Shown: positions 44,639 to 62,765 of the stretch, in pieces
Position numbering within the stretch: the first letter of the stretch is position 1
Layout of the letters: each line of letters opens with the position of its first letter
IMG/VR virus record: IMGVR_UViG_3300043754_000129
Location: 1 to 64,000 of that record
Reading direction: 5' to 3' (one strand)
DNA from: a virus
Lineage: Duplodnaviria; Caudoviricetes
Length of the DNA stretch: 64,000 nt
The notes under the pieces: model-generated
The model's database searches: none
Told to the model about the DNA's origin: nothing
The model's input: the letters and a program-made list of their open reading frames with translations, nothing else
Made by a program: the position numbers and the translations under genes

Positions 44639-45985
44639 TTACATCAGTGCGGTTTGGTAATTCATCCGACGCGTTTGCAGGGACTTGCCGTGCATGGCCT
44701 TCATCGAGATCAGCATGAAGGTCGAGCCGTATTCAGAGATCGCCGACGAGAGAGCGGTCGGGTTGACGGAAAGTCGATCTCCCACACATGTTGCGCAGTA
44801 GTCAGTTTTGTCCAAATTGCAGAACATCGGACTGCGAAGCATGATGTGTTTTCCCAGATACTTCTCAGCATCCTGGGGCGAGTTGACTTTCTCATGACCC
44901 GCTTGGGTAACGACCGAGAAGCCCGGCAGTTTGTAGACGTTCTTCTTGTCGACGAGCATCGGCAGGCCGAGCTTCGTGCCACAGTCAGCCTTGGTGATGA
45001 CCATGTTCGAGGAAGCACGCAGCAGCCACTTCACGGCTTCACCACCGAGCATCGTTTCAGCACCGCGGTTGTACGAACCCGCCCGCAGGCTGTCCATCAT
45101 CGCGGGGAACTTCTCGACGTTCCAGGTCTCCGAGAGCGAGGTGTCGATGAGATCCATCCCGCCTTCACCGAAGCCGAACTCCGCACCGTGCATCAGGAAC
45201 ACCTTGGAGCGCACCACGTCGAAGAACTTATCCTTGATCAGGAAGTTCTCCGCTTCATCGCCCTTGAGGTATTCCTTGTCGTAGGCAATGAGTTGCTTCA
45301 TGATCGCGGCAATCACAGCCGGATCGTGCAGGCGACCCTTGTTCTCTTTCAGGAGCTTCTCGCGCAGTTCCTTGATGCCAGGCGGGGCCACCATTTCCTT
45401 GGCGGTCTTCGCCGGCACACACAGCTGCGTGTAGCCTGCCAAGTGGAACATCGCGTCACAGAACTTCACGTACTCCGAGACGGTCAGGGGAGCGTCCGTG
45501 CCTTCACCCACGGGCGGAGCATGCACAATCCCCATGGGCATCTGGTGCGTGGACGGATTCGTTTCCACCACCCGGTTCAGGAGCTCTTGCTCGATCTTCT
45601 CGGCATTCACCCGACCGACCTTGTACTTCACCTTGTTGCCAAACGGCCAGATGAGACAGGTGTAGTTGAAGAGGATGTTGCCGTAGCTCGTGGTGACTTC
45701 CGCGTCGTAGAGGTTCTCGACCTCACCGTGCTTGATGTCCACCGAGTCCTTGAAGGCGAATGGCGGTTGACCAGCCGGGGCGTCCTCGAGCATCGAGAGC
45801 GCCCCACCCTTGTCCGGGTCGATGAAGAAGTGACCCGCGGGCGTCTGCACGATGCGATACGGATACGGTTCCTTCTTCCACTGGTCCGGGATCTCCTTCA
45901 CCAGGCTGAAGGCGGAGATGACCCAAGCCTTACGCTTGTACTCCCCAGCCTTCATGGCCTTCAGGAAGAATTCACGACGATGCAT
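44639..45985 (-). CDS. virion RNA polymerase beta' subunit, C-terminal part (phiKZ gp80-like)
   Basis: DCGT, LRSPMFC...DYCATCVG (Zn site) and MKAMHG, corresponding to beta' C-terminal regions; RKLFLM.G-like KVFLMHG. Confidence 0.85.
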   Translation of the reverse strand: MHRREFFLKAMKAGEYKRKAWVISAFSLVKEIPDQWKKEPYPYRIVQTPAGHFFIDPDKGGALSMLEDAPAGQPPFAFKDSVDIKHGEVENLYDAEVTTSYGNILFNYTCLIWPFGNKVKYKVGRVNAEKIEQELLNRVVETNPSTHQMPMGIVHAPPVGEGTDAPLTVSEYVKFCDAMFHLAGYTQLCVPAKTAKEMVAPPGIKELREKLLKENKGRLHDPAVIAAIMKQLIAYDKEYLKGDEAENFLIKDKFFDVVRSKVFLMHGAEFGFGEGGMDLIDTSLSETWNVEKFPAMMDSLRAGSYNRGAETMLGGEAVKWLLRASSNMVITKADCGTKLGLPMLVDKKNVYKLPGFSVVTQAGHEKVNSPQDAEKYLGKHIMLRSPMFCNLDKTDYCATCVGDRLSVNPTALSSAISEYGSTFMLISMKAMHGKSLQTRRMNYQTALM

Positions 45986-47996: not shown

Positions 47997-49580
47997 ATGA
48001 CTCAAGAGAACCAAGGTCTTTCAACCGATCTCGTGTTGGAAGACGACGGCTCGGTGGCGGGGCAACCCGCCCAGAACGGGGGCTTCGATGTTGTCCCCGA
48101 AGATACCGTAGCTGCCCCGGTGGAAGTGGCAGCAGAAGCAGCACAGAAAGCCGGCGATGAAAAGGCGGAATCGCAAGAGAGTGGCATTGGCTACCTCCCG
48201 CCGTCGGCAACCACGCAACAAGATCACGAGGTCTTCGCGGGCCTCGGCAAGGACTGGGAAGACGGCGATGTGACCATCGTCGGGATGGCGGACACGCGGG
48301 ATCGTACGCGTGACGCTATCAACGGTTTGCCCAACGTCGATCCGACCAGCACGGAAGCGGGTCGCGAGTGGGCCGGCTACATGCAAGAGTCGCTCAACTC
48401 GGTGCCGGCCCGTGACCAGTGGCGTTCCTCGTTGGACCGTGACGGTTCGGCCTGGCGTCAGCAAGTCGACTCCGAGCGCGGCCCGCTGCGCATGGGTGCT
48501 CTCTCCTTCGGTAACAACGACAGCGGCGTGCTGTCGGGTGAAAAGGCTGTGCTGCGCATTCGTGCGCAAGTCGGTCTGGGCCACGTCATTCAAGTGCCCC
48601 TCTGGCACTCGGGTTTCTGGGTCTCGGTGAAGGCGCCGTCGGATTCGGCCATGATCGAACTCAATCGTCGTTTGCTCGACGAGAAGGTGGTCGTGGGTCG
48701 GACGACGAACGGTCTGGCCTTTGCCAACACCTCGTCCTATATCTCGCAGGTGCTGCTCGACTTCGTGATGGATTACATCTACGACACGACGCTGCAAGAG
48801 AAGGACAAGAACGTGATCCGTTCGATGATCCAGTCGCATGATCTGCCGCTCCTCGAATGGGGTCTGGCCTGTGCAGTCTGGCCGCGTGGCTTCCAATACG
48901 CGCGTCCTTACATCGATCCGATCAACAGCGCCGAGAAGATCATCAAGGGCAAGCTGATGGTCAGCAAGCTCGTGTGGACGGACACCAAGGCGTTCACGTC
49001 GTGGCAAGTCGGTCACATGGCCAACAAGGTCAGCGGCTCGATGTCGACCGAAATGGTCAAGCGTTATCGTTCGGAATTCACGATCGGTCAAGCGCGTCGC
49101 ATCGACCTGGCCTCGAACCTGGCGATCACGCTGAAGGTGCCCAACGTCGTCGACTATGTCAACGCCGGTACGCGCTGGGTGGCCGAGATCACGCAGACGG
49201 TGGATGCGGCGTTTGCCGAACCGCCGGAAGACAATCGTCGTGCCAACCTGATCGTGCAACACGGTCAAGCCACGGCGATGCGTCAGTACACGCACTGGGT
49301 GGAAGCAATTCACTCGGGCAACGCGAGCATCGTCGATTCGGAAACGATCGAGAACGTGCTCAACGATCTGTCGGCAGACGACGACATCCGGACGAAGTTC
49401 TTCGACGAAGTGCGCAAGTACATCGACGACACGACCATCGCCCTGATCGGTACGCCGGCGGCTGAACACGAGAAGGCGGACACGCTGCCGCGCTTCCCGC
49501 ACGTGCTGCCGATGAACGTCGAGCACACTTTTTTTACCCTGCTCGAGCAGAAGGTGATGCGGATCAGCCAGCGCATCTAA
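47997..49580 (+). CDS. conserved phiKZ-like core protein (gp77-like)
   Basis: G....VPLWHSGFW, D...L.WG.A...WP.GF and Y.HWV motifs; synteny. Confidence 0.7.
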   Translation: MTQENQGLSTDLVLEDDGSVAGQPAQNGGFDVVPEDTVAAPVEVAAEAAQKAGDEKAESQESGIGYLPPSATTQQDHEVFAGLGKDWEDGDVTIVGMADTRDRTRDAINGLPNVDPTSTEAGREWAGYMQESLNSVPARDQWRSSLDRDGSAWRQQVDSERGPLRMGALSFGNNDSGVLSGEKAVLRIRAQVGLGHVIQVPLWHSGFWVSVKAPSDSAMIELNRRLLDEKVVVGRTTNGLAFANTSSYISQVLLDFVMDYIYDTTLQEKDKNVIRSMIQSHDLPLLEWGLACAVWPRGFQYARPYIDPINSAEKIIKGKLMVSKLVWTDTKAFTSWQVGHMANKVSGSMSTEMVKRYRSEFTIGQARRIDLASNLAITLKVPNVVDYVNAGTRWVAEITQTVDAAFAEPPEDNRRANLIVQHGQATAMRQYTHWVEAIHSGNASIVDSETIENVLNDLSADDDIRTKFFDEVRKYIDDTTIALIGTPAAEHEKADTLPRFPHVLPMNVEHTFFTLLEQKVMRISQRI

Positions 49581-50042: not shown

Positions 50043-50504
50043 ATGATCGTAACAACGCAAGTGGAAGACATCTTGACGTCCCCTGCTCAGACTCTCATTC
50101 TGCCGTGTAACACGGTGGGAGCGCTTGGTGCAGGCCTTGCCAAGAAGTTCAAAGAGAAGTGGCCAGAGATTGAATGGCCGTATAAGTATCAGTGCCAGAC
50201 GTTCCAGTTGGAATCGAATGGCCTGTATTGCTATCGACTGAAGACCAAGCTGCCCAAGCAGATTCTGTTCTTCCCAACCAAGAAGCACTGGAAACATCCC
50301 TCGAAGTTGCACTACATCGAGAAAGGACTTCTGAAGTTGGTGAAGGACTATGAGCGGTATGGGATCACGTCGTTGGCAGTGCCTATGCTCGGTTGCGGGC
50401 TTGGGCAATTGGAATGGGAAGATGTGTATCCGATGATCTTGGAGCACTTGGACCCGTTGCCAATTCCGGTGCGCATTTGTTTGTCGCCGGAGAAGCAATG
50501 GTAG
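50043..50504 (+). CDS. macrodomain protein, DarG-like ADP-ribosyl glycohydrolase
   Basis: PCNTVGALGAGLAK.FK, ILFFPTK.HW..PS...YIE.GL and SLAVP.LGCGLG.L.W. Confidence 0.9.
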   Translation: MIVTTQVEDILTSPAQTLILPCNTVGALGAGLAKKFKEKWPEIEWPYKYQCQTFQLESNGLYCYRLKTKLPKQILFFPTKKHWKHPSKLHYIEKGLLKLVKDYERYGITSLAVPMLGCGLGQLEWEDVYPMILEHLDPLPIPVRICLSPEKQW

Positions 50505-50572
50505 TACGGTAGGACCTTAATGGTGGGGGTGGTGGGATTCGAAACTTTTCCATCCACATTAAGGGTTTCGAA

Positions 50573-51139
50573 ATGAAGAAGATTGTCTCGCTGTTTTGCC
50601 GTAACTGGGAAGTACGTGAAGCCGACGGTGGTCACCTGGTCAAGAACGAGGTGATGGCAGAAGCGGAATGGGTCGTGAAGGGAGAGGGTGTCGCCACTCG
50701 TAAGTGGGACGGTGTCGCGGTGCTGGTTCAGGACGGGCGCGTGTTCATGCGCTTTGATCTGAAGTCGGGACGCCAAGTGCCTGAAGGTTTTCTCCCGGCT
50801 CAGGATGCTCCGGATCCCAAGACTGGCCACTGGCCGGGCTGGGTGCCTGCTGATACGCCGGCTGGCAAGTACGTCATGGAAGCGGTGAACAAGGCGGGCG
50901 TGGTAGCTGACGGAACGTACGAAGTGTGTGGGCCGAAGATTGGGACGCGTCATGGCGCCAATCCCGAGAAGCTGTCGGAACACGTTCTGATCCCGCATGG
51001 GAAGGATGTGATCGATGACTGTCCGCGCACCTTTGACGAACTGAAGGCGTACCTGCAAGCACGCACGATTGAAGGCATCGTCTGGCATCACCCTGATGGC
51101 CGGATGGTGAAGATCAAGAAGGCGGACTTCCCGCTGTAA
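50573..51139 (+). CDS. ATP-dependent RNA ligase-like protein (DUF5565-like)
   Basis: Motif I RKWDG, GHWPGW, GTYE..GPKI, IEGIVWHH.DGRM.KIK. Confidence 0.75.
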   Translation: MKKIVSLFCRNWEVREADGGHLVKNEVMAEAEWVVKGEGVATRKWDGVAVLVQDGRVFMRFDLKSGRQVPEGFLPAQDAPDPKTGHWPGWVPADTPAGKYVMEAVNKAGVVADGTYEVCGPKIGTRHGANPEKLSEHVLIPHGKDVIDDCPRTFDELKAYLQARTIEGIVWHHPDGRMVKIKKADFPL

Positions 51140-51159
51140 AGAAGCAAAAAAAGAAGGAA

Positions 51160-51196
51160 GCATAAGCGCCCCGGGTTTCCCCGGGGCTTTATGCCG
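51160..51196. terminator. bidirectional terminator with GCATAA...TTTATGCCG arms
   Basis: Between convergent genes; stem GCCCCGGG/CCCGGGGC. Confidence 0.75.
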
Positions 51197-51201
51197 TTGG
51201 C

Positions 51202-51609
51202 TTATTCAGCCAGCAACTGCTCGAGCGTTACCGCTCCGCCGTTTCCTTCGGGCTCCTCGTACTGACGCATCGGGTAGCCCTTCGGTACAACGTGCAACGG
51301 CTCGCTACGGTCGTAGCACTTACCGCTCCAGTCCCACGACCAGGACATGTCACAGAAGGCCGCCATGCCGTTCTCCGGGCCTGCGTAACGGAAGACCGGA
51401 ATCCATTCCTCCGTCTCCCGCACGTAACGCCACTGGCTTTCCGACGCGCCCGGAACAGCCAGGAATTCCTCCGGCTGCAAATGGGTGTTTTGGATTACCA
51501 CTTGACGCCCAGCGATTTCACCCATAAGGCATTCGCTGTCACGCAGGTAGAGAGTTTGAATCTCTGCGAGCGTGTACACCTGCCCTGCCTTCGGATAAAT
51601 CTTTGTCAT
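51202..51609 (-). CDS. hypothetical protein
   Basis: AAGGAGG RBS; follows the chimallin-like gene. Confidence 0.65.
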   Translation of the reverse strand: MTKIYPKAGQVYTLAEIQTLYLRDSECLMGEIAGRQVVIQNTHLQPEEFLAVPGASESQWRYVRETEEWIPVFRYAGPENGMAAFCDMSWSWDWSGKCYDRSEPLHVVPKGYPMRQYEEPEGNGGAVTLEQLLAE

Positions 51610-51633
51610 GTTTGGCCTCCTTGCCTGATGACG

Positions 51634-53364
51634 TTAATTCCAGCGATCGAAGCCCGAACGCGGGCCCGGACCGTAAGACTGACCTTGAAACGGTTGACGG
51701 AAGAGTCCGCTTTCTTGTGCACCCATCGCTGCTTGCGAAGCGAACGGGTAGTCCGGCGTCCACGCCTGCGGCTTTTGCGGCACCCGCACCGCGAAGCCTG
51801 CATCACGCAGACCGTTACGCAGTGCATTGATGAAGCTCGCACCGAACGACACACGCGTGGCGATGTCCGTGAACTGCACCTTCCCGAGCAGGCCACGGAT
51901 CATGTCCTTGCGTTTGGCAAGCCGGACCGGCTCCGGGATCGACAGGTTCATGTAGGTCGCTGCCCAGTCTTCACTCAGACGGGGGTCACGGCCATACGTG
52001 AGCGCAGTCACCAACAACTGGTCCACATCCCGCACATCACGATGACTTCCATCGCGGTCGGCGTAGTAGCCCAACGGAATCGGATTGTTCTCCGTGAAGA
52101 CAACCTGATCGTGGCCGTTGAAGTAGTTGTTGAAACGCCCGGCACACAGGTGCTGCGCGGTGTGCAGGATGTGACTGCGTGCGGCTTCCGAACCATGGGC
52201 GGCAGCGGCCCAGACTTCGGTACGCCACGTGTCTGCCCCGGCATTGGCGATGTCCATCGAGAACACGAGGTTCGGACGGATGATGTCACGCAGCTTCTGC
52301 GCCATTTCATCCGGTTCCGCGATCACCCGGGGGAAGTCCGGCAGCAAGGCTTCCAGCCGGCTCGTGCGGGTGAGGTCCATGTTCGGATTCACCAGCGCAT
52401 CGTACCAGCTGTTGTTTTCGGTGAGCGTGCTGGCCATGCCGATCATGAGCAGCTGCATCGAGAGCAGATCCGGCGCATTGCGACCCGGCTGGATCTGGGT
52501 GATCACGAAACGCGGAATGTACTTCTTTTCCGGCATCGCAATCAGATCGACGAAGCCGCTCACTTCCCCGACTTCCTCCTCACGGTTGGTCGGCTGACCC
52601 GGCAGCTGACGGGCAGCGGCCGCGAGGGTGAGTGTCACATCGCGCCGCACCGGCTGGCCGAACGAGTCGACAGCATGCGCAACCTGCGTCGACAGGTAGT
52701 CCGTACGCAACGAGTACACGCCGCGATCTTCGATGTCGCCCAGACAGATTTCGTTCGGACCATCCGTCTGATCGACCAACGCCGTGGTGGCCGCCATCGC
52801 GATGTTGTACGCCACGCGATTGAAGATCAGCGGGTCTTCCAGATTCAGACCGCGGAAGAGCACGCAGGGGGCGGCGTCGAAGAACGTCGTGTTGGGCAGC
52901 TTGTTGGCGAGCACTTCACGGACGATGGTCTGGTAGGTGCGATCGTACACTTCGCCAAGCGAGCGCTCGGTCTCGATACGCAGGCCCTGGTAGTTGATGG
53001 AGTCGGTGCGGGTTTGCAGGATGGACTCTTCCGTCTCGATCATCACGAGTTGGTAGCCCATGCCAGCTTCAGGCTTGTCGCTCTTCATCGCCAGAACAGC
53101 CAAGGCGGGCACGAGGAGGTGCTCATGCGTGATGGGTATCAGCGTGAACACGAAGTCCGTGCTGGCCTTCTCCAGGGCCTTAGCGAGCAGGTTCTGGAAC
53201 TTCTCGAGTTCCGGGTGGCTCGGCTTGAGCGACTCGAACAGACCGCTGCGCGCATCGAAGAACGAACGCGGGCCACGGGTCTTCTTGTCGCCCTCTTCAC
53301 GGGCACGACGGAATGCATCACCCATGCCGGCCGGATCTGCGCTGTGGTTTTCGTTGATTGCCAT
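51634..53364 (-). CDS. chmA: chimallin (phage nucleus shell protein) homolog
   Basis: Colinear motif matches to the 201phi2-1 gp105 sequence as recalled: DSFGQPVRRDV ~ DTVGNPIRADI; NLVFSMDI ~ NPVFQIDL; GRFNNYFN ~ GGFERFFD; IPLGYY.DRDG.HRDVRDVD ~ IDLGNWFDGDEKRDRRDLD; FINAL...L.DAG ~ FIEAL...L.EAG; Gly/Phe/Gln-rich C-terminal segments. Confidence 0.85.
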   Translation of the reverse strand: MAINENHSADPAGMGDAFRRAREEGDKKTRGPRSFFDARSGLFESLKPSHPELEKFQNLLAKALEKASTDFVFTLIPITHEHLLVPALAVLAMKSDKPEAGMGYQLVMIETEESILQTRTDSINYQGLRIETERSLGEVYDRTYQTIVREVLANKLPNTTFFDAAPCVLFRGLNLEDPLIFNRVAYNIAMAATTALVDQTDGPNEICLGDIEDRGVYSLRTDYLSTQVAHAVDSFGQPVRRDVTLTLAAAARQLPGQPTNREEEVGEVSGFVDLIAMPEKKYIPRFVITQIQPGRNAPDLLSMQLLMIGMASTLTENNSWYDALVNPNMDLTRTSRLEALLPDFPRVIAEPDEMAQKLRDIIRPNLVFSMDIANAGADTWRTEVWAAAAHGSEAARSHILHTAQHLCAGRFNNYFNGHDQVVFTENNPIPLGYYADRDGSHRDVRDVDQLLVTALTYGRDPRLSEDWAATYMNLSIPEPVRLAKRKDMIRGLLGKVQFTDIATRVSFGASFINALRNGLRDAGFAVRVPQKPQAWTPDYPFASQAAMGAQESGLFRQPFQGQSYGPGPRSGFDRWN

Positions 53365-53396
53365 GTGGAATTCTCCTTGGTTTGCTGTTGGTGGTT

Positions 53397-54116
53397 TTAA
53401 CGCGGGGTGAGCACTTCGTTGGGGTAACGCTCACTGTGATCGACTTTGCCTTCTGCGTAGGCAATACCGAAGGCCGTGACGCGGATCTCCTCGCCGCACG
53501 GGTTGGTATCGTCATCGCAGACTTGCGGAGTCGGCTCGAGCGTGCCCGGGTAGAAACGCTCGATCCACAGACGACGGTTGCAGTCGCAGGAGAAGTTGTT
53601 TTCCTCCCAGTCGAAGATCACCGTGTCGAGCGGATAGCCGTAGCTGTACTCCTTGCGCACGTCGTACTCTTTGCCCTTGTACTTGAGCGTCACAAGGGCT
53701 ACGGGGCGCTTGGTGACGTTCTCGCCTTCACGCTCATCGAGCTTCAGGTCGGGCTTGACGAGCGGCGCCAGCAGCTGTTTAATGCGGTCCTTGTAGACAT
53801 CACGCTCTTCCTTCGTATCGAAGGCGCGCACGTACACTTCCTTGCCGTACTCGATGCCGTTGGGTTCGCCCATCTGCTTGCGGAAGATGGCGAGCTCAAT
53901 CACTTCCCCGGAGATCACGAGGCCGTAACCAGCCTTCTCCGGGATCTTGTCATCGTTGTACGGACACTGCTGGTGCATCTTCGCCCAGAGCTGCTCTTCC
54001 GTGAGTTCGGCAGGCGGCTTCTTGATCCCTTCGACCGCCTCATGAGCGGCGTGAGCGATCATCTTGCCGTAGGGCGTGGTGTCGAGGAAATTGAAACCGT
54101 TGTAACCGTTCTTCAT
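53397..54116 (-). CDS. hypothetical protein with a W..NNFSCDCNR motif
   Basis: C-terminal Cys cluster (SCDCNR...C...CG) suggests metal binding. Confidence 0.7.
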   Translation of the reverse strand: MKNGYNGFNFLDTTPYGKMIAHAAHEAVEGIKKPPAELTEEQLWAKMHQQCPYNDDKIPEKAGYGLVISGEVIELAIFRKQMGEPNGIEYGKEVYVRAFDTKEERDVYKDRIKQLLAPLVKPDLKLDEREGENVTKRPVALVTLKYKGKEYDVRKEYSYGYPLDTVIFDWEENNFSCDCNRRLWIERFYPGTLEPTPQVCDDDTNPCGEEIRVTAFGIAYAEGKVDHSERYPNEVLTPR

Positions 54117-54151: not shown

Positions 54152-54355
54152 TTACCACCAGCGGTAGTTGCCCTGATTCGGCTTGTGCTGTTTGTTATCC
54201 AGAACGCAGACGGGCACACCGCCTGCCTTCTTGCGCGAGGTCCAGCTTTCGCGCGGTTGGAAGTGCGGAGTAGAGTGGGCCACCCGACGCTTCGAGAGTT
54301 CCACCTTCTTCTTTTGCAGGCGGCGCTGTTTAGGCGTCTGTTGGTAGTTCTTCAC
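54152..54355 (-). CDS. small basic protein
   Basis: GTG start after a TAAGGAG RBS; Lys/Arg-rich. Confidence 0.55.
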   Translation of the reverse strand: MKNYQQTPKQRRLQKKKVELSKRRVAHSTPHFQPRESWTSRKKAGGVPVCVLDNKQHKPNQGNYRWW

Positions 54356-54749: not shown

Positions 54750-54778
54750 GGCATACTGGCCTGGGACGTACCCAGGCC
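54750..54778 (-). terminator. hairpin + TATGCC element
   Basis: GGCCTGGG/CCCAGGCC stem, then AGTATGCCTTTTCTTT on the minus strand. Confidence 0.65.
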
Positions 54779-54787
54779 GGTAGGTCT

Positions 54788-55303
54788 TTAGTGGACGGTG
54801 TGGTTGCCTTCAACGACGAAACGCGGACGACGGGGCTGCGGAGCACGCGGCGCGTAGTTGGGGACATCAGCCACGGGCTGGCAGATCATGCCCTTGTCAT
54901 CATCACCGACGACCTGGACATGCACACCCTTGTCACCGGCTGCGTTGGTGACCGAGAACTTCTTTTCCAGACTCGCTTGCCACATACGGTCAGCTTTGAG
55001 CGGATCGGGTGCCGGTTCATTGCGCGCTTCGCGTGCTTTCGCGATTTCCTCTTGCGTCGGCACGCTGTCCGGGAAGAGCTTGTCTGCCTGAGTCGTGATC
55101 GTCTCCCAGAGCTTCTGGATCATCTTGACTTCTTCGATGAGTTCGGATTTGGGGACGCCGAACACGAGCTTGACCTTCAGGGCGGCAATGACTGCCATAT
55201 GCAGGCTGCATGCCACGCGCATGGCTTCTTCGGTGTCGGGAGGGTTGTCGACCACGAATTGCATCATTGCGAGGCTTGCTTTCTTTTCTTGTTGCTGATC
55301 CAT
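54788..55303 (-). CDS. hypothetical protein (paralog family C, VDNPPD motif)
   Basis: AACCAAGGAG leader; similar to 58153..58449. Confidence 0.7.
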   Translation of the reverse strand: MDQQQEKKASLAMMQFVVDNPPDTEEAMRVACSLHMAVIAALKVKLVFGVPKSELIEEVKMIQKLWETITTQADKLFPDSVPTQEEIAKAREARNEPAPDPLKADRMWQASLEKKFSVTNAAGDKGVHVQVVGDDDKGMICQPVADVPNYAPRAPQPRRPRFVVEGNHTVH

Positions 55304-55381
55304 TACGTACTCCTTGGTTTGTTGGTTATGACTGCGAAGACCTACTGACCTGGAGTTGCCCCCAGGCCGCTAGATCCTAGC

Positions 55382-56170: not shown

Positions 56171-56195
56171 CTCAGTAGCGTTATATAGGTCTGAG
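56171..56195 (-). promoter_or_regulatory. putative early promoter, copy 2: CTCAGACCTATATAACGCTACTGAG
   Basis: Matches the copies at 17201 and 60394; intergenic. Confidence 0.65.
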
Positions 56196-57455: not shown

Positions 57456-58064
57456 TTAGATGCGCACTTGTTCCTGAATCAGCACGCGTTTGGCCAGCAC
57501 CTTCTCACGACGCGAGCCGTGACGCAGGATGCGCGCCAGTTGGTAATCGGTCCGGATGCGCGGCAGGACGTCTTGAAACACCTTGCCGCTCTTGTTCCAA
57601 CCACGCTCGAACGGCAGCTTGCCCTTGTCGTCCGCCCAGAGAATCTGGTACACACGCACAGGACCATAGCGTCGCTTAGCACCCATCACGTACTTGACCC
57701 GCGTGTATTGCCAAGTGACGTCACGGATGAAGATCGGCACGTTGAAAAGGTCGGTACGCAGACCCATCTTCACGCCACCATTCTTGCGCATTTCGTCGGC
57801 GAGCGTGCAGATGATCATCTGCTTGTTCTGCGCCGCCAGGTTTCCCGTCATGATGAATTCGGGCAACTGAAGCTTACCCAGGCCGATCGAGTAGGTGAAG
57901 CCGCTACCCTTCTTGCCCTTGCCCGGGAACACGTTCATGTGGGTGTGACCGTGCTTCTCGATCAATGCGTCGAGGTCCGCATGAATCCGGCGAATGCGCT
58001 CTTGCATGGGGAGTGCAAGCCAAGCTGCGCGTTCTTCTTCGTTCATTTCGTTGATGTTGTTCAT
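57456..58064 (-). CDS. DUF4262-like protein
   Basis: FTYSIGL..L.LPE.I.TG and QILW.D..G.LP motifs. Confidence 0.8.
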   Translation of the reverse strand: MNNINEMNEEERAAWLALPMQERIRRIHADLDALIEKHGHTHMNVFPGKGKKGSGFTYSIGLGKLQLPEFIMTGNLAAQNKQMIICTLADEMRKNGGVKMGLRTDLFNVPIFIRDVTWQYTRVKYVMGAKRRYGPVRVYQILWADDKGKLPFERGWNKSGKVFQDVLPRIRTDYQLARILRHGSRREKVLAKRVLIQEQVRI

Positions 58065-61125: not shown

Positions 61126-62697
61126 CTACAACAGCGGATGGTACGGCGTCACTAACAGGTGCAGTGCAACACCGTCCAGGAGTTTTATTTTGTTCTCGTG
61201 ATAGTTCAGATGCTTTTCATTATCCGAATTCACGAGGTAGACGAACTCCGGCGTCTTACCCGAGCGCAGCTTACGAAGACGGCCCATGGCTTGCAGGTTC
61301 GCTGCTTCGCTGTCGATTGCGGTCGTCATGATCACTGCGATCAGATTCTTGATGTCATGCCCCGTACCCCCAGCCCCGATGGTGGTCACGCAGATATCGG
61401 ATTCGAAGAGGTTAGCCTTCGGGTCTCCGTCACTGGGCGCATAACGCCGGATATCCAAATCCGGATAGAGCACTTGCAGATACTTGGCAATTGCCGTACA
61501 CATGTCGATCGACGCTGCGAAAACCACAGCGCACTCTTCAGCATCCGTTTTCTTCTGGAAGTACTTGGCCTGAAGATAGATGTTAATCATCGTCAGGTAG
61601 TTCTTCAAGACTTGCGGCTGCTTCAGGATCGACTCTTCAAAGACGTTGTGCGAGTACTCGGTGCGGCCGCGCTCGGTGAACCGGATTTTGTCCGGGTAAT
61701 CGAAGCGGTAGGTGACGGCCGTGTAATTTACGTACTTGTCGTACGCCAAGCCCTTGAAGCGCCAATTCGACGGATATCCGATTTCGAACATCCGCATCAT
61801 GAACGGGTCCTTGGAGCGCAGGGTAGCACTCATGGACCAGATGTGTTGGCAGTGGGTGTACAAGTCGATCTTGAAGAAGTTGTGGAACTCGCGGTGGACT
61901 TCGTCAGTCACGCGCACGCCACAGCCGGATTGCCCCATGAACTCGTCCGGCATGAATGCATAGCCGATTTCCGAGATCCCGTAGTGAAGCTGTTCGTAAA
62001 CAGTCATCCAGCCACGGAAGATGGTGCTCGCGATAATGACAATCTTGCAATCCAGCAGACCCTCTTTACAGAGCTGCGTGAACGCCATCAAGTCCTTACC
62101 GGTACGGATGACCATGATGTCCATCCGATCAATGTCCAGCACTTCCACCAACTCATCGCACCACTTGACCACGTACTGCGGTAACACGGTAATAAAGGGA
62201 CGAACCCCCAGGCGTCCCAATGCGAACATTGAGATAATGCCCTTGCCTTTACCCGTCTGGACCCCGACGAGTTTAGTCGTCGGAGCGTCACCCTCCAGAA
62301 AGTAATTCACTGCGGAGATCTGCGCGTTCATGTCATCTTCGCGCAACTCCAAGCGCTCATCGGTCCCGAGTTTAAACTCTCGGGGAATGAGCTCCACCTC
62401 AACGGGTTCCGGAATGGGATCCTCGACCCATTGGGTGAAGTTCTCGCCAACGCGGGCGAATTCGATGTGCTTCTTGAACTCGGCGAGCACGTTCCGATGG
62501 AAGCGCATCTCGGTTCTATCCGCACACTTTGCTGCATATTCCTTCTCTACCTTCCGTTCGACACGGCCATACATCTTGCGCGGCATCCCCAGTTGCTGGA
62601 AGCGCGCCTTGAACCCAACCACCAGGTTCCGGGCCATAGCCGACGTTGGACGACAGACAAAGTGATGCGAGCGGATGTTCACAAAGAGCTCTGCCAT
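61126..62697 (-). CDS. SF2 (DEAD/UvsW-like) helicase (phiKZ gp75-like)
   Basis: QTGKGK (Walker A), TDEVH (Walker B), SAT (motif III), QAMGRLR (motif VI). Confidence 0.9.
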   Translation of the reverse strand: MAELFVNIRSHHFVCRPTSAMARNLVVGFKARFQQLGMPRKMYGRVERKVEKEYAAKCADRTEMRFHRNVLAEFKKHIEFARVGENFTQWVEDPIPEPVEVELIPREFKLGTDERLELREDDMNAQISAVNYFLEGDAPTTKLVGVQTGKGKGIISMFALGRLGVRPFITVLPQYVVKWCDELVEVLDIDRMDIMVIRTGKDLMAFTQLCKEGLLDCKIVIIASTIFRGWMTVYEQLHYGISEIGYAFMPDEFMGQSGCGVRVTDEVHREFHNFFKIDLYTHCQHIWSMSATLRSKDPFMMRMFEIGYPSNWRFKGLAYDKYVNYTAVTYRFDYPDKIRFTERGRTEYSHNVFEESILKQPQVLKNYLTMINIYLQAKYFQKKTDAEECAVVFAASIDMCTAIAKYLQVLYPDLDIRRYAPSDGDPKANLFESDICVTTIGAGGTGHDIKNLIAVIMTTAIDSEAANLQAMGRLRKLRSGKTPEFVYLVNSDNEKHLNYHENKIKLLDGVALHLLVTPYHPLL

Positions 62698-62765
62698 ACA
62701 GCACCAGTTAAAGAGTGGTGAAAGGAATGGGGAGGTGGACACACTCCCCAAACCATAAACGGCTC

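What the first reader, a model, noticed from the sequence alone, without database searches (positions are those of the whole stretch)
51634..53364. Chimallin (nuclear shell) gene outside its canonical locus: possible second chimallin
Seen: a full-length 576-aa ORF whose motifs run colinear with chimallin, including Gly/Phe/Gln-rich C-terminal segments of the kind used for lattice assembly. Known: in phiKZ-like phages chmA normally sits between the main DNA polymerase gene and a non-virion RNAP beta' gene (phiKZ gp50-54-55 block). Here it lies inside an accessory island between the gp75-like helicase and the gp77-like gene, among small unknowns and next to a macrodomain and an RNA ligase. Inference: either chmA was relocated, or this is a second, divergent paralog. 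A paralog could build a hetero-lattice, change shell permeability or import selectivity, serve another host, or interfere with the nucleus of co-infecting jumbo phages.
Basis: partly seen in the sequence, partly recalled or inferred. Interest (0 to 1): 0.87.

Follow-up and report, generated by a model that had tools for sequence, protein, structure and literature searches.

The report
Hypervariable second chimallin in jumbo phage
This soil jumbo phage carries, besides its normal nuclear-shell gene, an intact second shell-protein gene from a separate, fast-evolving and previously undescribed branch of the family, and closely related phages carry very different versions of it, which suggests a strain-specific part of the phage nucleus.

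Summary
Confirmed. Window 51634-53364 (minus strand) is an intact 576-aa chimallin homologue by sequence (PHROG 4795, E 5.5e-55) and by fold (the top nine PDB matches are all chimallin/PhuN, TM 0.70-0.82). The 323.7-kb genome also holds a canonical 646-aa chmA at 80003-81943, just upstream of the non-virion RNAP beta' gene. This is therefore a second copy, not a relocation.

The two copies are 30% identical. The second copy falls in a well-supported clade of 12 short (532-576 aa), metagenome-only chimallins. An AU test rejects grouping this clade with the phage's own chmA lineage (p = 0.01). The clade lacks the Q-rich N-tail and the flexible inter-tetramer Loop. It keeps the two-domain core, the beta-hairpin and the C-terminal tail anchors.

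Both copies lie on one contig in three independent assemblies. The paralog fills the same slot (gp75-like helicase island, convergent on Macro and RNA ligase) in at least five related phages. There it is 34-49% identical while flanking core genes are 73-93% identical and canonical ChmA is 91% identical. Synonymous divergence indicates cassette exchange.

None of 118 chimallin-encoding cultured phage records has two copies.

Function is inferred: an accessory, strain-specific chimallin-type assembly protein. An overlapping window of this genome flagged the same stretch.

The parts
51634..53364 (-). Second chimallin gene (short-clade paralog), 576 aa. Approximate map against 201phi2-1 gp105: shortened N-tail 1-35, NTS-like SFF..GLF about 33-47, N-terminal domain 44-201 (beta-hairpin 121-132), GNAT-like C-terminal domain 205-529, CTS1-like 535-554, CTS2-like 564-576 ending RWN.
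   Evidence: ORF and translation. Family matches. Fold. Domain mapping.
53373..53378 (-). Shine-Dalgarno AAGGAG, 8 nt upstream of the paralog's ATG. Only 32 nt separate the paralog from the upstream gene, so it is probably co-transcribed with it.
   Evidence: Sequence read.
53397..54116 (-). 239-aa gene of unknown function directly upstream of the paralog. It keeps this position in the related phages L004, L007, L008 and L029 and is itself fast-evolving (51-59% identity). It shares the paralog's low synonymous divergence between L004 and L007, so it is part of the same cassette.
   Evidence: No Pfam or PHROG hit. Orthologues. dS.
51202..51609 (-). 135-aa gene of unknown function, last gene of the minus-strand run downstream of the paralog. 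Among the relatives it is present only in L008/L031 (68% identity).
51157..51187 (.). GC-rich hairpin (8 G-C pairs) with T-runs on both sides, between the convergent units. It is a likely bidirectional terminator that closes the paralog's transcription unit.
   Evidence: The terminator scan as a whole is not enriched over shuffles, so this rests on position and stem strength.
50043..51139 (+). Convergent neighbours: Macro domain gene (50043-50504) and RNA ligase gene (50573-51139). They mark one edge of the slot in all related phages.
47997..49580 (+). phiKZ gp77-like core gene (PHROG 4585). Used as the conserved flank for rate comparison (82-84% identity to close relatives).
61126..62751 (-). 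phiKZ gp75-like DNA helicase. It is the upstream edge of the accessory island, which holds about 20 small genes before the paralog.
56180..56193 (-). Nearest upstream copy of a promoter-like motif (CAGACCTATATAAC). The motif also precedes the canonical chmA and the nvRNAP beta' gene. It is a candidate promoter of the unit that runs towards the paralog. Hairpins with T-runs at about 55340-55380 and 54754-54782 lie in between.
   Evidence: 5 matches against 1.8 expected in the window; suggestive only; hairpins.
54152..54355 (-). 67-aa basic protein ending GNYRWW. It is 85-90% conserved. It lies upstream of the paralog here but directly downstream of it in L004, L007 and L029, so it marks rearrangement around the cassette. 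Its C-terminal RWW resembles the terminal RW of both chimallins.

Best explanation
SHOWN. The ORF is an intact second chimallin-family gene in a nucleus-forming (phiKZ-like) soil jumbo phage. The same phage keeps a canonical chmA at the standard locus 26.6 kb away. The second copy is not a recent duplicate. It belongs to a separate, long-branched clade of short chimallins known only from metagenomes. That clade has lost the Q-rich N-tail, the large flexible Loop that links tetramers in phiPA3 PhuN, and a conserved FEGN..RIDTK segment. It keeps the two-domain core, the beta-hairpin, an NTS-like segment and the C-terminal tail anchors (invariant Phe in SGLF; terminal RW). It sits in one fixed slot of an accessory island between the gp75-like helicase and the Macro/RNA-ligase/gp77-like block. 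It behaves as an exchangeable, hypervariable cassette: alleles are 34-49% identical among phages whose flanking core genes are 73-93% identical and whose canonical ChmA is 91% identical.

INFERRED. It is made during infection and still assembles by chimallin-type arm exchange, as tetramers or small patches, at or in the phage nucleus. Without the Loop it probably cannot build a long-range lattice as ChmA does. It would therefore act as an accessory, strain-specific shell component. Its fast turnover points to a role in conflict, either with co-infecting relatives or with host defence, rather than in basic shell construction.
For: Identity and fold.

Two copies in one genome. The copies are 30% identical over their full length.

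Not an assembly artefact. Both copies lie on one contig in three independent assemblies: this record; JGI Ga0558098_0000816; and ENA k141_1550495, 320 kb.

Separate clade. Exhaustive HMMER search. FastTree and IQ-TREE (C20 mixture) both give a monophyletic short clade with 99-100 support, sister to canonical P0079/P0088. The AU test rejects short clade plus own canonical clade as one group at p = 0.0099.

Conserved slot in five related phages.

Hypervariability. Paralog 34-47% against flanks 73-93%. Among L004, L008 and L029 the gp77-like gene is 92-93% identical and the paralog 38-46%. Within one genome pair, canonical ChmA is 91% identical and the paralog 45%.

Cassette exchange. Between L004 and L007, synonymous differences are 3 in about 554 sites in the 237-aa gene plus paralog, against 35 in about 622 sites in the flanks (Fisher p = 1.7e-7).

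Still under constraint. The ORF is intact in all 12 clade representatives, with 23 invariant columns. The protein stays acidic like ChmA. It has a strong SD and genome-typical codon-position GC.

Retained and lost assembly elements: read against 201phi2-1 NTS/CTS1/CTS2 (bioRxiv 10.1101/2022.02.14.480162) and the phiPA3 Loop 272-291. Deleting that Loop lowers shell integration and abolishes long-range order (PMC9938867).
Against: There is no expression or localisation data; only soil DNA runs hold the sequence. No binding evidence was obtained. phiKZ and phiPA3 shell proteins, 45% identical, each assembled only into the cognate phage's shell (PMC7804931). A 30%-identical paralog therefore need not mix with ChmA. 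The tails are not better conserved than the core among slot alleles (CTS1-like 35% against 39% overall), which gives no sign of co-evolution with the near-invariant ChmA. High divergence could partly reflect relaxed constraint. The three more distant clade members whose loci I read (P0061, P0066, P0067) sit in another context, and I could not show that their genomes also hold a canonical copy. The promoter motif evidence is weak.
Confidence: 0.55

Rival explanations
1. Self-contained second assembly. The paralog does not mix with ChmA but forms its own homotypic tetramers, cages or small compartment (for example around incoming DNA, or a decoy or auxiliary body). The alleles then work as a strain-specific identity or incompatibility marker between co-infecting relatives.
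For: Non-cognate chimallins at 45% identity do not enter each other's shells (PMC7804931), and the paralog is only 30% identical to the resident ChmA. Alleles vary freely while ChmA is nearly invariant, so the paralog is not constrained to fit the ChmA lattice. Loss of the Loop favours small assemblies over long-range order in phiPA3 (PMC9938867). Polymorphic cassettes in a fixed slot are typical of recognition or exclusion loci (my own knowledge).
Against: There is no direct evidence for any assembly. The tail anchors (SGLF, terminal RW) are the family-wide ones, so tail docking onto ChmA is not excluded. In this phage the last 25 tail residues are about 56% identical to those of its own ChmA.
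Confidence: 0.25
2. Decaying or neutral duplicate. A redundant copy under relaxed selection, on its way to loss.
For: It evolves very fast compared with ChmA and with the flanks. It is absent from the Caballeronia-associated relative and from FLC9. The upstream half scores poorly against the Pfam model.
Against: The reading frame is intact at 532-576 aa in all 12 clade representatives and in every locus read. The fold is predicted with confidence. There are 23 invariant columns, including family-wide anchors. It has held one slot across phages whose flanking genes are only 51-58% identical. The clade-specific deletions are shared, so they are old. In a close pair the paralog shows 3 non-synonymous and 3 synonymous differences and no stop or frameshift. 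The AU test rejects a recent in-lineage duplication.
Confidence: 0.07
3. Non-structural use of the chimallin fold. For example, a decoy or sponge for a host sensor that recognises ChmA, or a protein that uses the GNAT/AtaT-like C-terminal domain and its CTS1 (antitoxin-like) groove to bind another partner.
For: [quoted passage not shown] The gene lies in an accessory island beside candidate counter-defence genes (Macro, RNA ligase, DUF4262). Fast evolution fits host-phage conflict.
Against: A decoy should resemble ChmA, but the alleles diverge away from it (30% identity). The arms used for assembly are kept in every member. No catalytic motif was tested or seen.
Confidence: 0.1
4. Simple relocation of the only chmA gene.
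For: None after testing.
Against: A canonical 646-aa chmA with a stronger Pfam score (155 bits) lies at 80003-81943, at the standard locus.
Confidence: 0.01

Closest known systems
Chimallin ChmA / PhuN, the major nuclear shell protein of Chimalliviridae (201phi2-1 gp105, Goslar gp189, phiPA3 gp53, phiKZ gp54; PDB 7SQQ-7SQV, 8FNE, 8IGG)
   Same: Same family by HMM and same two-domain fold (TM 0.70-0.82). The protein is acidic. It has disordered N- and C-terminal extensions, a retained beta-hairpin, an NTS-like segment and the C-terminal tail anchors.
   Different: It is a second copy beside a canonical one. It is 18-30% identical to canonical proteins and about 70 aa shorter. It lacks the Q-rich N-tail, the flexible inter-tetramer Loop (phiPA3 272-291) and the FEGN..RIDTK segment. 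It is not at the DNA-polymerase/nvRNAP-beta' locus. It evolves several-fold faster and is exchanged as a cassette.
The canonical chmA of the same genome (G000 80003-81943, 646 aa) and its orthologues P0006-P0020
   Same: Same genome, same strand, same family. Similar C-terminal end (...RSGFSRWG against ...RSGFDRWN).
   Different: 30% identity. The canonical lineage is 56-91% conserved across relatives, while the paralog is 34-49%. The two fall in different clades.
Chimallin gene duplication noted in passing in an uncultured human-oral 'G3' variant genome (BMC Genomics 2025, PMC12625630)
   Same: Two chimallin genes in one metagenomic genome, one with low similarity to references.
   Different: A different habitat, and no sign that it is the same phage group. 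That paper gives no clade, synteny, structure or rate analysis in the text I read. I could not compare sequences, so it is unknown whether that copy belongs to the short clade.
Engineered phiPA3 PhuN Loop deletion (Nat Commun 2023, PMC9938867)
   Same: The short clade is a natural counterpart: the Loop is absent (0-1 residues) in the six short-clade members printed, and at least three quarters of the clade have a gap across that stretch. The tails and hairpin remain.
   Different: The engineered mutant is otherwise wild-type ChmA. Its reduced shell integration and lost long-range order are a lead to the paralog's behaviour, not a measurement of it.

Membership tests
Chimallin family (Pfam PF25677 / PHROG 4795) | Significant match to the family profile above the curated cut-off | tested here: met
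   PF25677 at 74.4 bits against a cut-off of 27 (only residues 352-527 align). PHROG 4795 at 188 bits over residues 89-536. phmmer against PDB chimallin chains at E 1e-15.
Chimallin family (Pfam PF25677 / PHROG 4795) | Two-domain core: alpha+beta N-terminal domain plus GNAT-like C-terminal domain | tested here: met
   AF2 model with pLDDT 78.8 and pTM 0.79. The top nine Foldseek PDB hits are all chimallin/PhuN, E 1e-27 to 3e-25, TM 0.70-0.82, aligned over 514-573 columns.
Chimallin family (Pfam PF25677 / PHROG 4795) | Flexible N- and C-terminal segments (NTS, CTS1, CTS2) that dock on neighbouring protomers | tested here: inconclusive
   Disordered ends at 1-48 and 532-576. NTS-like SFF..GLF, CTS1-like PDYPF..SGLF and a terminal RW align with the canonical tails; F555 is invariant and W575 nearly so. 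Docking itself is not shown.
Chimallin family (Pfam PF25677 / PHROG 4795) | Large flexible Loop forming the inter-tetramer 'Loop interface' (phiPA3 272-291) | tested here: not met
   The Loop is absent (0-1 residues) in the six short-clade members printed, and at least three quarters of the clade have a gap there. It is present in P0003 (290-312, low pLDDT) and in the reference proteins.
Chimallin family (Pfam PF25677 / PHROG 4795) | Self-assembly into tetramers and a square lattice that encloses phage DNA | not testable with these tools
   Needs biochemistry or imaging. Full-length homo- or hetero-oligomers exceed the size limit of the complex predictor.
Canonical chmA (core gene of Chimalliviridae) | Position downstream of the divergent DNA polymerase block and directly upstream of the nvRNAP beta' gene | tested here: not met
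   The paralog lies between the gp75-like helicase island and Macro/RNA ligase/gp77-like. The other copy, at 80003-81943, meets this feature.
Canonical chmA (core gene of Chimalliviridae) | Single-copy gene that tracks genome phylogeny | tested here: not met
   It is a second copy. Its tree disagrees with the flanks: L003 has the most distant flanks but not the most distant paralog. Cassette dS is about 10-fold below flank dS.
Chimalliviridae genome (host of the gene) | Chimallin plus multisubunit virion and non-virion RNAP genes in phiKZ-like order | tested here: met
   Canonical chmA. RNAP beta/beta' subunit genes at 44639-45985 and 78258-79784, with further subunits between 62766 and 67175. 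Gene order gp68-gp81 as in 201phi2-1.

The most novel reading that the evidence does not exclude
The short, Loop-less chimallin is a polymorphic 'nuclear identity' or incompatibility locus. Each allele would form, or cap, shells only with its own kind. Closely related nucleus-forming phages whose main ChmA is almost identical could then still keep their nuclei separate, or poison a rival's shell, during co-infection. Alleles would be swapped between phages as cassettes. That would be a self/non-self system built from the shell protein itself.
Probability: 0.15. Interest if true: 0.9.

Novelty: new variant of a known kind. Interest (0 to 1): 0.8.

Why it matters
Chimallin is treated as a single-copy core gene that alone builds the phage nucleus. 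The papers I read do not mention a second copy: the core-genome study of 66 cultured phages (10.1101/2023.02.24.529968), a 2025 review (PMC12908238) and a 2026 review (PMC13282480). In my own search, none of 118 chimallin-encoding records in the cultured-phage collection has two copies.

This is a conserved second lineage of the shell protein. It has lost one of the lattice interfaces and evolves like a conflict gene. That gives a concrete handle on open questions. How does the shell gain heterogeneity, such as sites for import, export or capsid docking? How do closely related nucleus-forming phages stay genetically isolated in one cell? Can hosts or rival phages target the shell? It also supplies natural Loop-less variants for structural work.

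Tried and rejected
(1) Complex prediction with the canonical core (P0003 44-596) plus the paralog tail (P0002 528-576) returned 'no answer' (score 0.01, controls not run). This is no evidence either way.

(2) The search for related loci in IMG/VR with the paralog alignment found no relatives other than the window's own record.

(3) The genome search on metagenome loci: the records are not held. Copy numbers in the long contigs of P0061, P0066 and P0067 therefore could not be counted.

(4) The short-clade alignment A4 was too divergent for a pattern scan of genome contigs.

(5) A third word-index search with the canonical alignment returned the same set as before.

(6) Read laying showed a close soil variant (116 differences in 5.4 kb), but the difference table was cut after position 51763. 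The three differences listed inside the paralog are all at third codon positions, which is too few for dN/dS.

(7) L004 against L007 gives only six differences in the paralog (dN/dS 0.30), too few to interpret on their own.

(8) Sigma-70 promoter and terminator scans are not enriched over shuffles. The phage-specific motif is only modestly enriched. I do not claim a temporal class.

(9) Relocation and recent duplication were both considered and rejected.

(10) The 456-aa ORF that fills the slot in the Caballeronia-associated phage is not chimallin-like (hhalign probability 0.2%).
Full report
**What is at the coordinates**

Window 51634-53364 holds an ATG-started ORF of 576 aa on the minus strand. 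Its GC by codon position is 0.63/0.43/0.77. That is the pattern of the other genes in this 57.4% GC genome. AAGGAG lies 8 nt before the ATG.

The protein matches Pfam PF25677 (Chimallin_Phikzvirus) at 74.4 bits against a cut-off of 27, with only residues 352-527 aligned. It matches PHROG 4795 'nuclear shell protein' at E 5.5e-55 over residues 89-536. It also matches the sequences of solved chimallin/PhuN chains at E 1.6e-15 to 1.5e-9.

An AlphaFold2 model built on 41 sequences has pLDDT 78.8 and pTM 0.79. The core, residues about 50-531, is ordered; the ends 1-48 and 532-576 are disordered. Against the PDB the model's nine best matches are all chimallin or PhuN, at E 1e-27 to 3e-25 and TM 0.70-0.82. 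The tenth match is at E 4e-3.

**One copy or two**

The window is the first 64 kb of a 323,678-bp virus record. The chimallin HMM finds two loci in that record.

- The stronger match (155 bits) is a 646-aa ORF at 80003-81943 on the minus strand. It is followed by the nvRNAP beta' gene at 78258-79784. In orthologous loci the divergent DNA polymerase lies about 6 kb upstream and a PF00623 gene lies directly downstream. This is the canonical chmA.
- The window's ORF is therefore a second copy, 26.6 kb downstream on the same strand.

The two proteins align end to end at 30% identity, E 6e-71.

**Where it sits**

The gene order matches phage 201phi2-1. It runs chmA, nvRNAP beta', gp68-70-like genes, nvRNAP subunits, then the gp75-like helicase at 61126-62751. 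Where 201phi2-1 has three small genes after the helicase, this phage has about 20. The last large one is the paralog, followed by a 135-aa gene.

This run converges on RNA ligase (50573-51139), Macro (50043-50504), a 142-aa gene and the gp77-like gene (47997-49580). A GC-rich hairpin with T-runs on both sides lies at 51157-51187, between the two units.

**How common is a second copy**

In the cultured-phage collection the paralog hits 96 records and the canonical protein hits 118, each at exactly one place per record. The nearest cultured phage is Burkholderia phage FLC9. It is 37.5% identical to the canonical copy and 26.7% to the paralog, at the same single locus.

The core-genome paper on 66 chimallin phages and the two reviews I read do not mention a second copy. 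One 2025 paper notes in passing a chimallin duplication in an uncultured oral 'G3' genome (PMC12625630).

**A separate clade**

An exhaustive HMMER search of 1.84 billion representative proteins gives 868 chimallin-like proteins. The best matches to the paralog are 11 further proteins of 532-568 aa, all from metagenomes.

In a FastTree of 195 sequences and an IQ-TREE (LG+C20) of 51, these 12 proteins form one clade with 99-100 support. The clade is sister to two canonical-locus proteins, P0079 and P0088 (96 support; P0079's locus was read). It lies far from the clade of this phage's own ChmA. An AU test rejects a tree that joins the short clade with the own canonical clade (delta lnL 39.5, p = 0.0099). 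I named that group after seeing the tree.

End branches in the short clade are 0.56-1.8 changes per site. In the own canonical clade they are 0.03-0.2. The copy is therefore an old lineage. Either it was acquired from another chimallivirus line, or it descends from an ancient duplication followed by losses. It is not a recent duplicate.

**What the short clade kept and lost**

I aligned it with 201phi2-1, phiPA3, Goslar and canonical relatives.

Lost:
- The Q-rich N-tail (P0003 residues 25-46).
- A 23-residue stretch, P0003 289-311. This is exactly the 'large flexible Loop' of phiPA3 PhuN (residues 272-291). It is reduced to 0-1 residues in the six members printed, and at least three quarters of the clade have a gap there.
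- The segment FEGNTTGFGSRIDTK (P0003 382-396).

Kept:
- The beta-hairpin (P0002 121-132).
- An NTS-like SFF..GLF segment.
- A CTS1-like PDYPF...SGLF segment.
- The terminal RW. F555 is invariant across 41 sequences and W575 nearly so.

In 201phi2-1 the NTS links protomers within a tetramer, and CTS1 and CTS2 link tetramers; deleting them disrupts assembly (10.1101/2022.02.14.480162). In phiPA3 the Loop forms one of four lattice interfaces. Deleting it lowers shell integration and abolishes long-range order (PMC9938867). In the model of the canonical copy this Loop has low confidence, as expected for a flexible element.

The paralog therefore looks like a natural Loop-less chimallin that keeps its arms. 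That it keeps the ability to oligomerise is an inference from these features.

**Both copies together, and a fixed slot**

Two further assemblies carry both genes on one contig.

- JGI Ga0558098_0000816 (104 kb): canonical P0013, 66% identical to the window's canonical copy, and paralog P0005, 43-46% identical to the window's paralog.
- ENA k141_1550495 (320 kb): a canonical copy 91% identical to P0003, and paralog P0057, 45% identical.

The paralog fills the same slot, convergent on RNA ligase and Macro, in L003, L004/L005, L007, L008/L031 and L029. A 44-kb contig from another soil study spans the region at about 98% identity. Misassembly is excluded.

A more distant relative lies in the assembly of Caballeronia arationis LMG 29324, with a canonical copy 57% identical. 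It has no paralog, and an unrelated 456-aa ORF sits next to its Macro gene. That assembly is broken inside the island.

**Hypervariability**

Identities to the window's genes are as follows.

| Gene | L004 / L007 / L008 / L029 |
|---|---|
| gp77-like | 82-84% |
| 142-aa gene | 89-93% |
| Macro | 84-85% |
| RNA ligase | 73-75% |
| Helicase | 87% (L029 only) |
| vRNAP subunit | 82-84% |
| Paralog | 34-47% |
| 239-aa gene upstream of the paralog | 51-59% |

Among L004, L008 and L029 the gp77-like proteins are 92-93% identical, but the paralogs are 38-46% identical. L003 has the most distant flanks (57-61%) and a paralog no more distant than the others (44-47%). Within one genome pair, ChmA is 91% identical and the paralog 45%.

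Conversely, between L004 and L007 the 237-aa gene plus the paralog show 3 synonymous differences in about 554 sites. The flanking genes show 35 in about 622 (Fisher p = 1.7e-7).

The two patterns together indicate that the cassette is exchanged among related phages and that many very different alleles are maintained. In the other soil sample, contigs match the flanks and then run on as unlike sequence at 51206 and 53886. Those positions bracket the paralog (weak evidence).

The protein nevertheless stays intact, acidic and foldable. The clade has 23 invariant columns.

**How it most likely works**

*Shown.* This is a second, old, Loop-less, hypervariable chimallin kept in a fixed accessory slot beside a conserved ChmA.

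*Inferred, about 55%.* It is expressed and oligomerises by arm exchange at or in the nucleus. It works as an accessory, strain-specific component, and its turnover reflects conflict.

I cannot decide whether it mixes with ChmA.
- For mixing: the tail anchors are the family-wide ones. In this phage the last 25 tail residues are about 56% identical to ChmA's.
- Against mixing: phiKZ and phiPA3 shell proteins, 45% identical, each assembled only with the cognate phage (PMC7804931). Paralog alleles vary while ChmA is nearly fixed. The tails are no better conserved than the core.

The main rival is therefore a self-contained assembly or identity/incompatibility factor (about 25%). A decaying duplicate is unlikely (about 7%). 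Relocation is refuted.

**Expression signals**

A motif, CAGAC-N-TATAT[A/C]AC followed by CTGA, occurs about 20 times in the genome, and 20 of 21 matches are on the minus strand. It precedes chmA (about 82033) and the nvRNAP beta' gene (about 79911). In the island it occurs at about 60417 and 56194. The latter site is 2.8 kb upstream of the paralog, with two hairpin-plus-T-run sites in between. Enrichment in the window is modest: 5 matches against 1.8 expected. I draw no conclusion on timing. No RNA run holds the sequence; the holders are soil metagenomes.

**Limits**

Three more distant clade members (P0061, P0066, P0067) sit in another context, upstream of a convergent SNF2 helicase; a DnaB-like gene lies beyond it in the P0066 and P0067 loci. 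I could not determine whether their genomes also carry a canonical chmA. 'Always a second copy' is therefore shown only for the slot-bearing group.

**Verdict**

The feature is a new variant of a known kind: an undescribed, fast-evolving subfamily of the nuclear shell protein. It has a testable mechanistic lead (Loop-less, arms kept) and a population pattern typical of conflict or recognition loci.

Noticed in passing
window 54152-54355 (-): A 67-aa, very basic protein ends in GNYRWW. It is 85-90% identical in relatives. It lies upstream of the paralog here and directly downstream of it in L004, L007 and L029. Its RWW end recalls the terminal RW of both chimallins, so it might use the same tail pocket.
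   Followed up: partly
window 54788-55303 (-): A 171-aa ORF is only 25-29% identical to its positional counterparts in phages whose core genes are about 80-90% identical. It is a second hypervariable gene in the island, with no Pfam or PHROG match.
   Followed up: partly
G001 (Caballeronia arationis LMG 29324 assembly), contigs C275 (143,740 bp) and C339 (74,066 bp); loci L020, L027, L028: A bacterial isolate assembly holds large contigs of a related nucleus-forming jumbo phage (ChmA 57% identical, plus helicase, gp77-like and Macro genes). This suggests Burkholderiaceae as hosts and a carrier state or contamination in that culture. C339 ends in a tandem GGTGCGGACGCAGGAGCTTGTGC-like repeat.
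   Followed up: partly
G000 about 82033, 79911, 60417, 56194, 17224, 15871 and about 15 further sites, nearly all on the minus strand: A promoter-like motif, CAGAC-N-TATAT[A/C]AC, followed a few bases later by CTGA. It precedes chmA and the nvRNAP beta' gene. From memory it resembles the AT-rich early promoter core of phiKZ. Enrichment is only modest.
   Followed up: partly
window 51206 and 53886 (run X2): In a second soil metagenome, contigs match the flanks and then continue as unlike sequence exactly at the borders of the 135-aa gene / paralog / 239-aa block. One joint skips 51228-53860. This fits a co-occurring relative with another cassette allele, but the shorter side of the joint is only 22 bases.
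   Followed up: no
window 57456-58064 (-); L003 4708-5199 and 9342-9923: DUF4262 genes recur in the island, and the JGI relative has two copies, one directly upstream of its paralog. Function unknown.
   Followed up: no
G000 as a whole: The IMG/VR record is classed as 'provirus' (323,678 bp, from a 326,938-bp contig). Its gene content is that of a phiKZ-like lytic jumbo phage, so the label probably comes from end trimming.
   Followed up: no
L010/L011, L019, L030 (contigs carrying P0067, P0066, P0061): Distant short-clade chimallins lie in a different conserved context, a few genes upstream of a convergent SNF2 helicase. A DnaB-like gene lies beyond it in L010 and L019. L019 has a HicB-like gene just upstream, and L010 has an Acb2/Tad1-like gene nearby.
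   Followed up: partly
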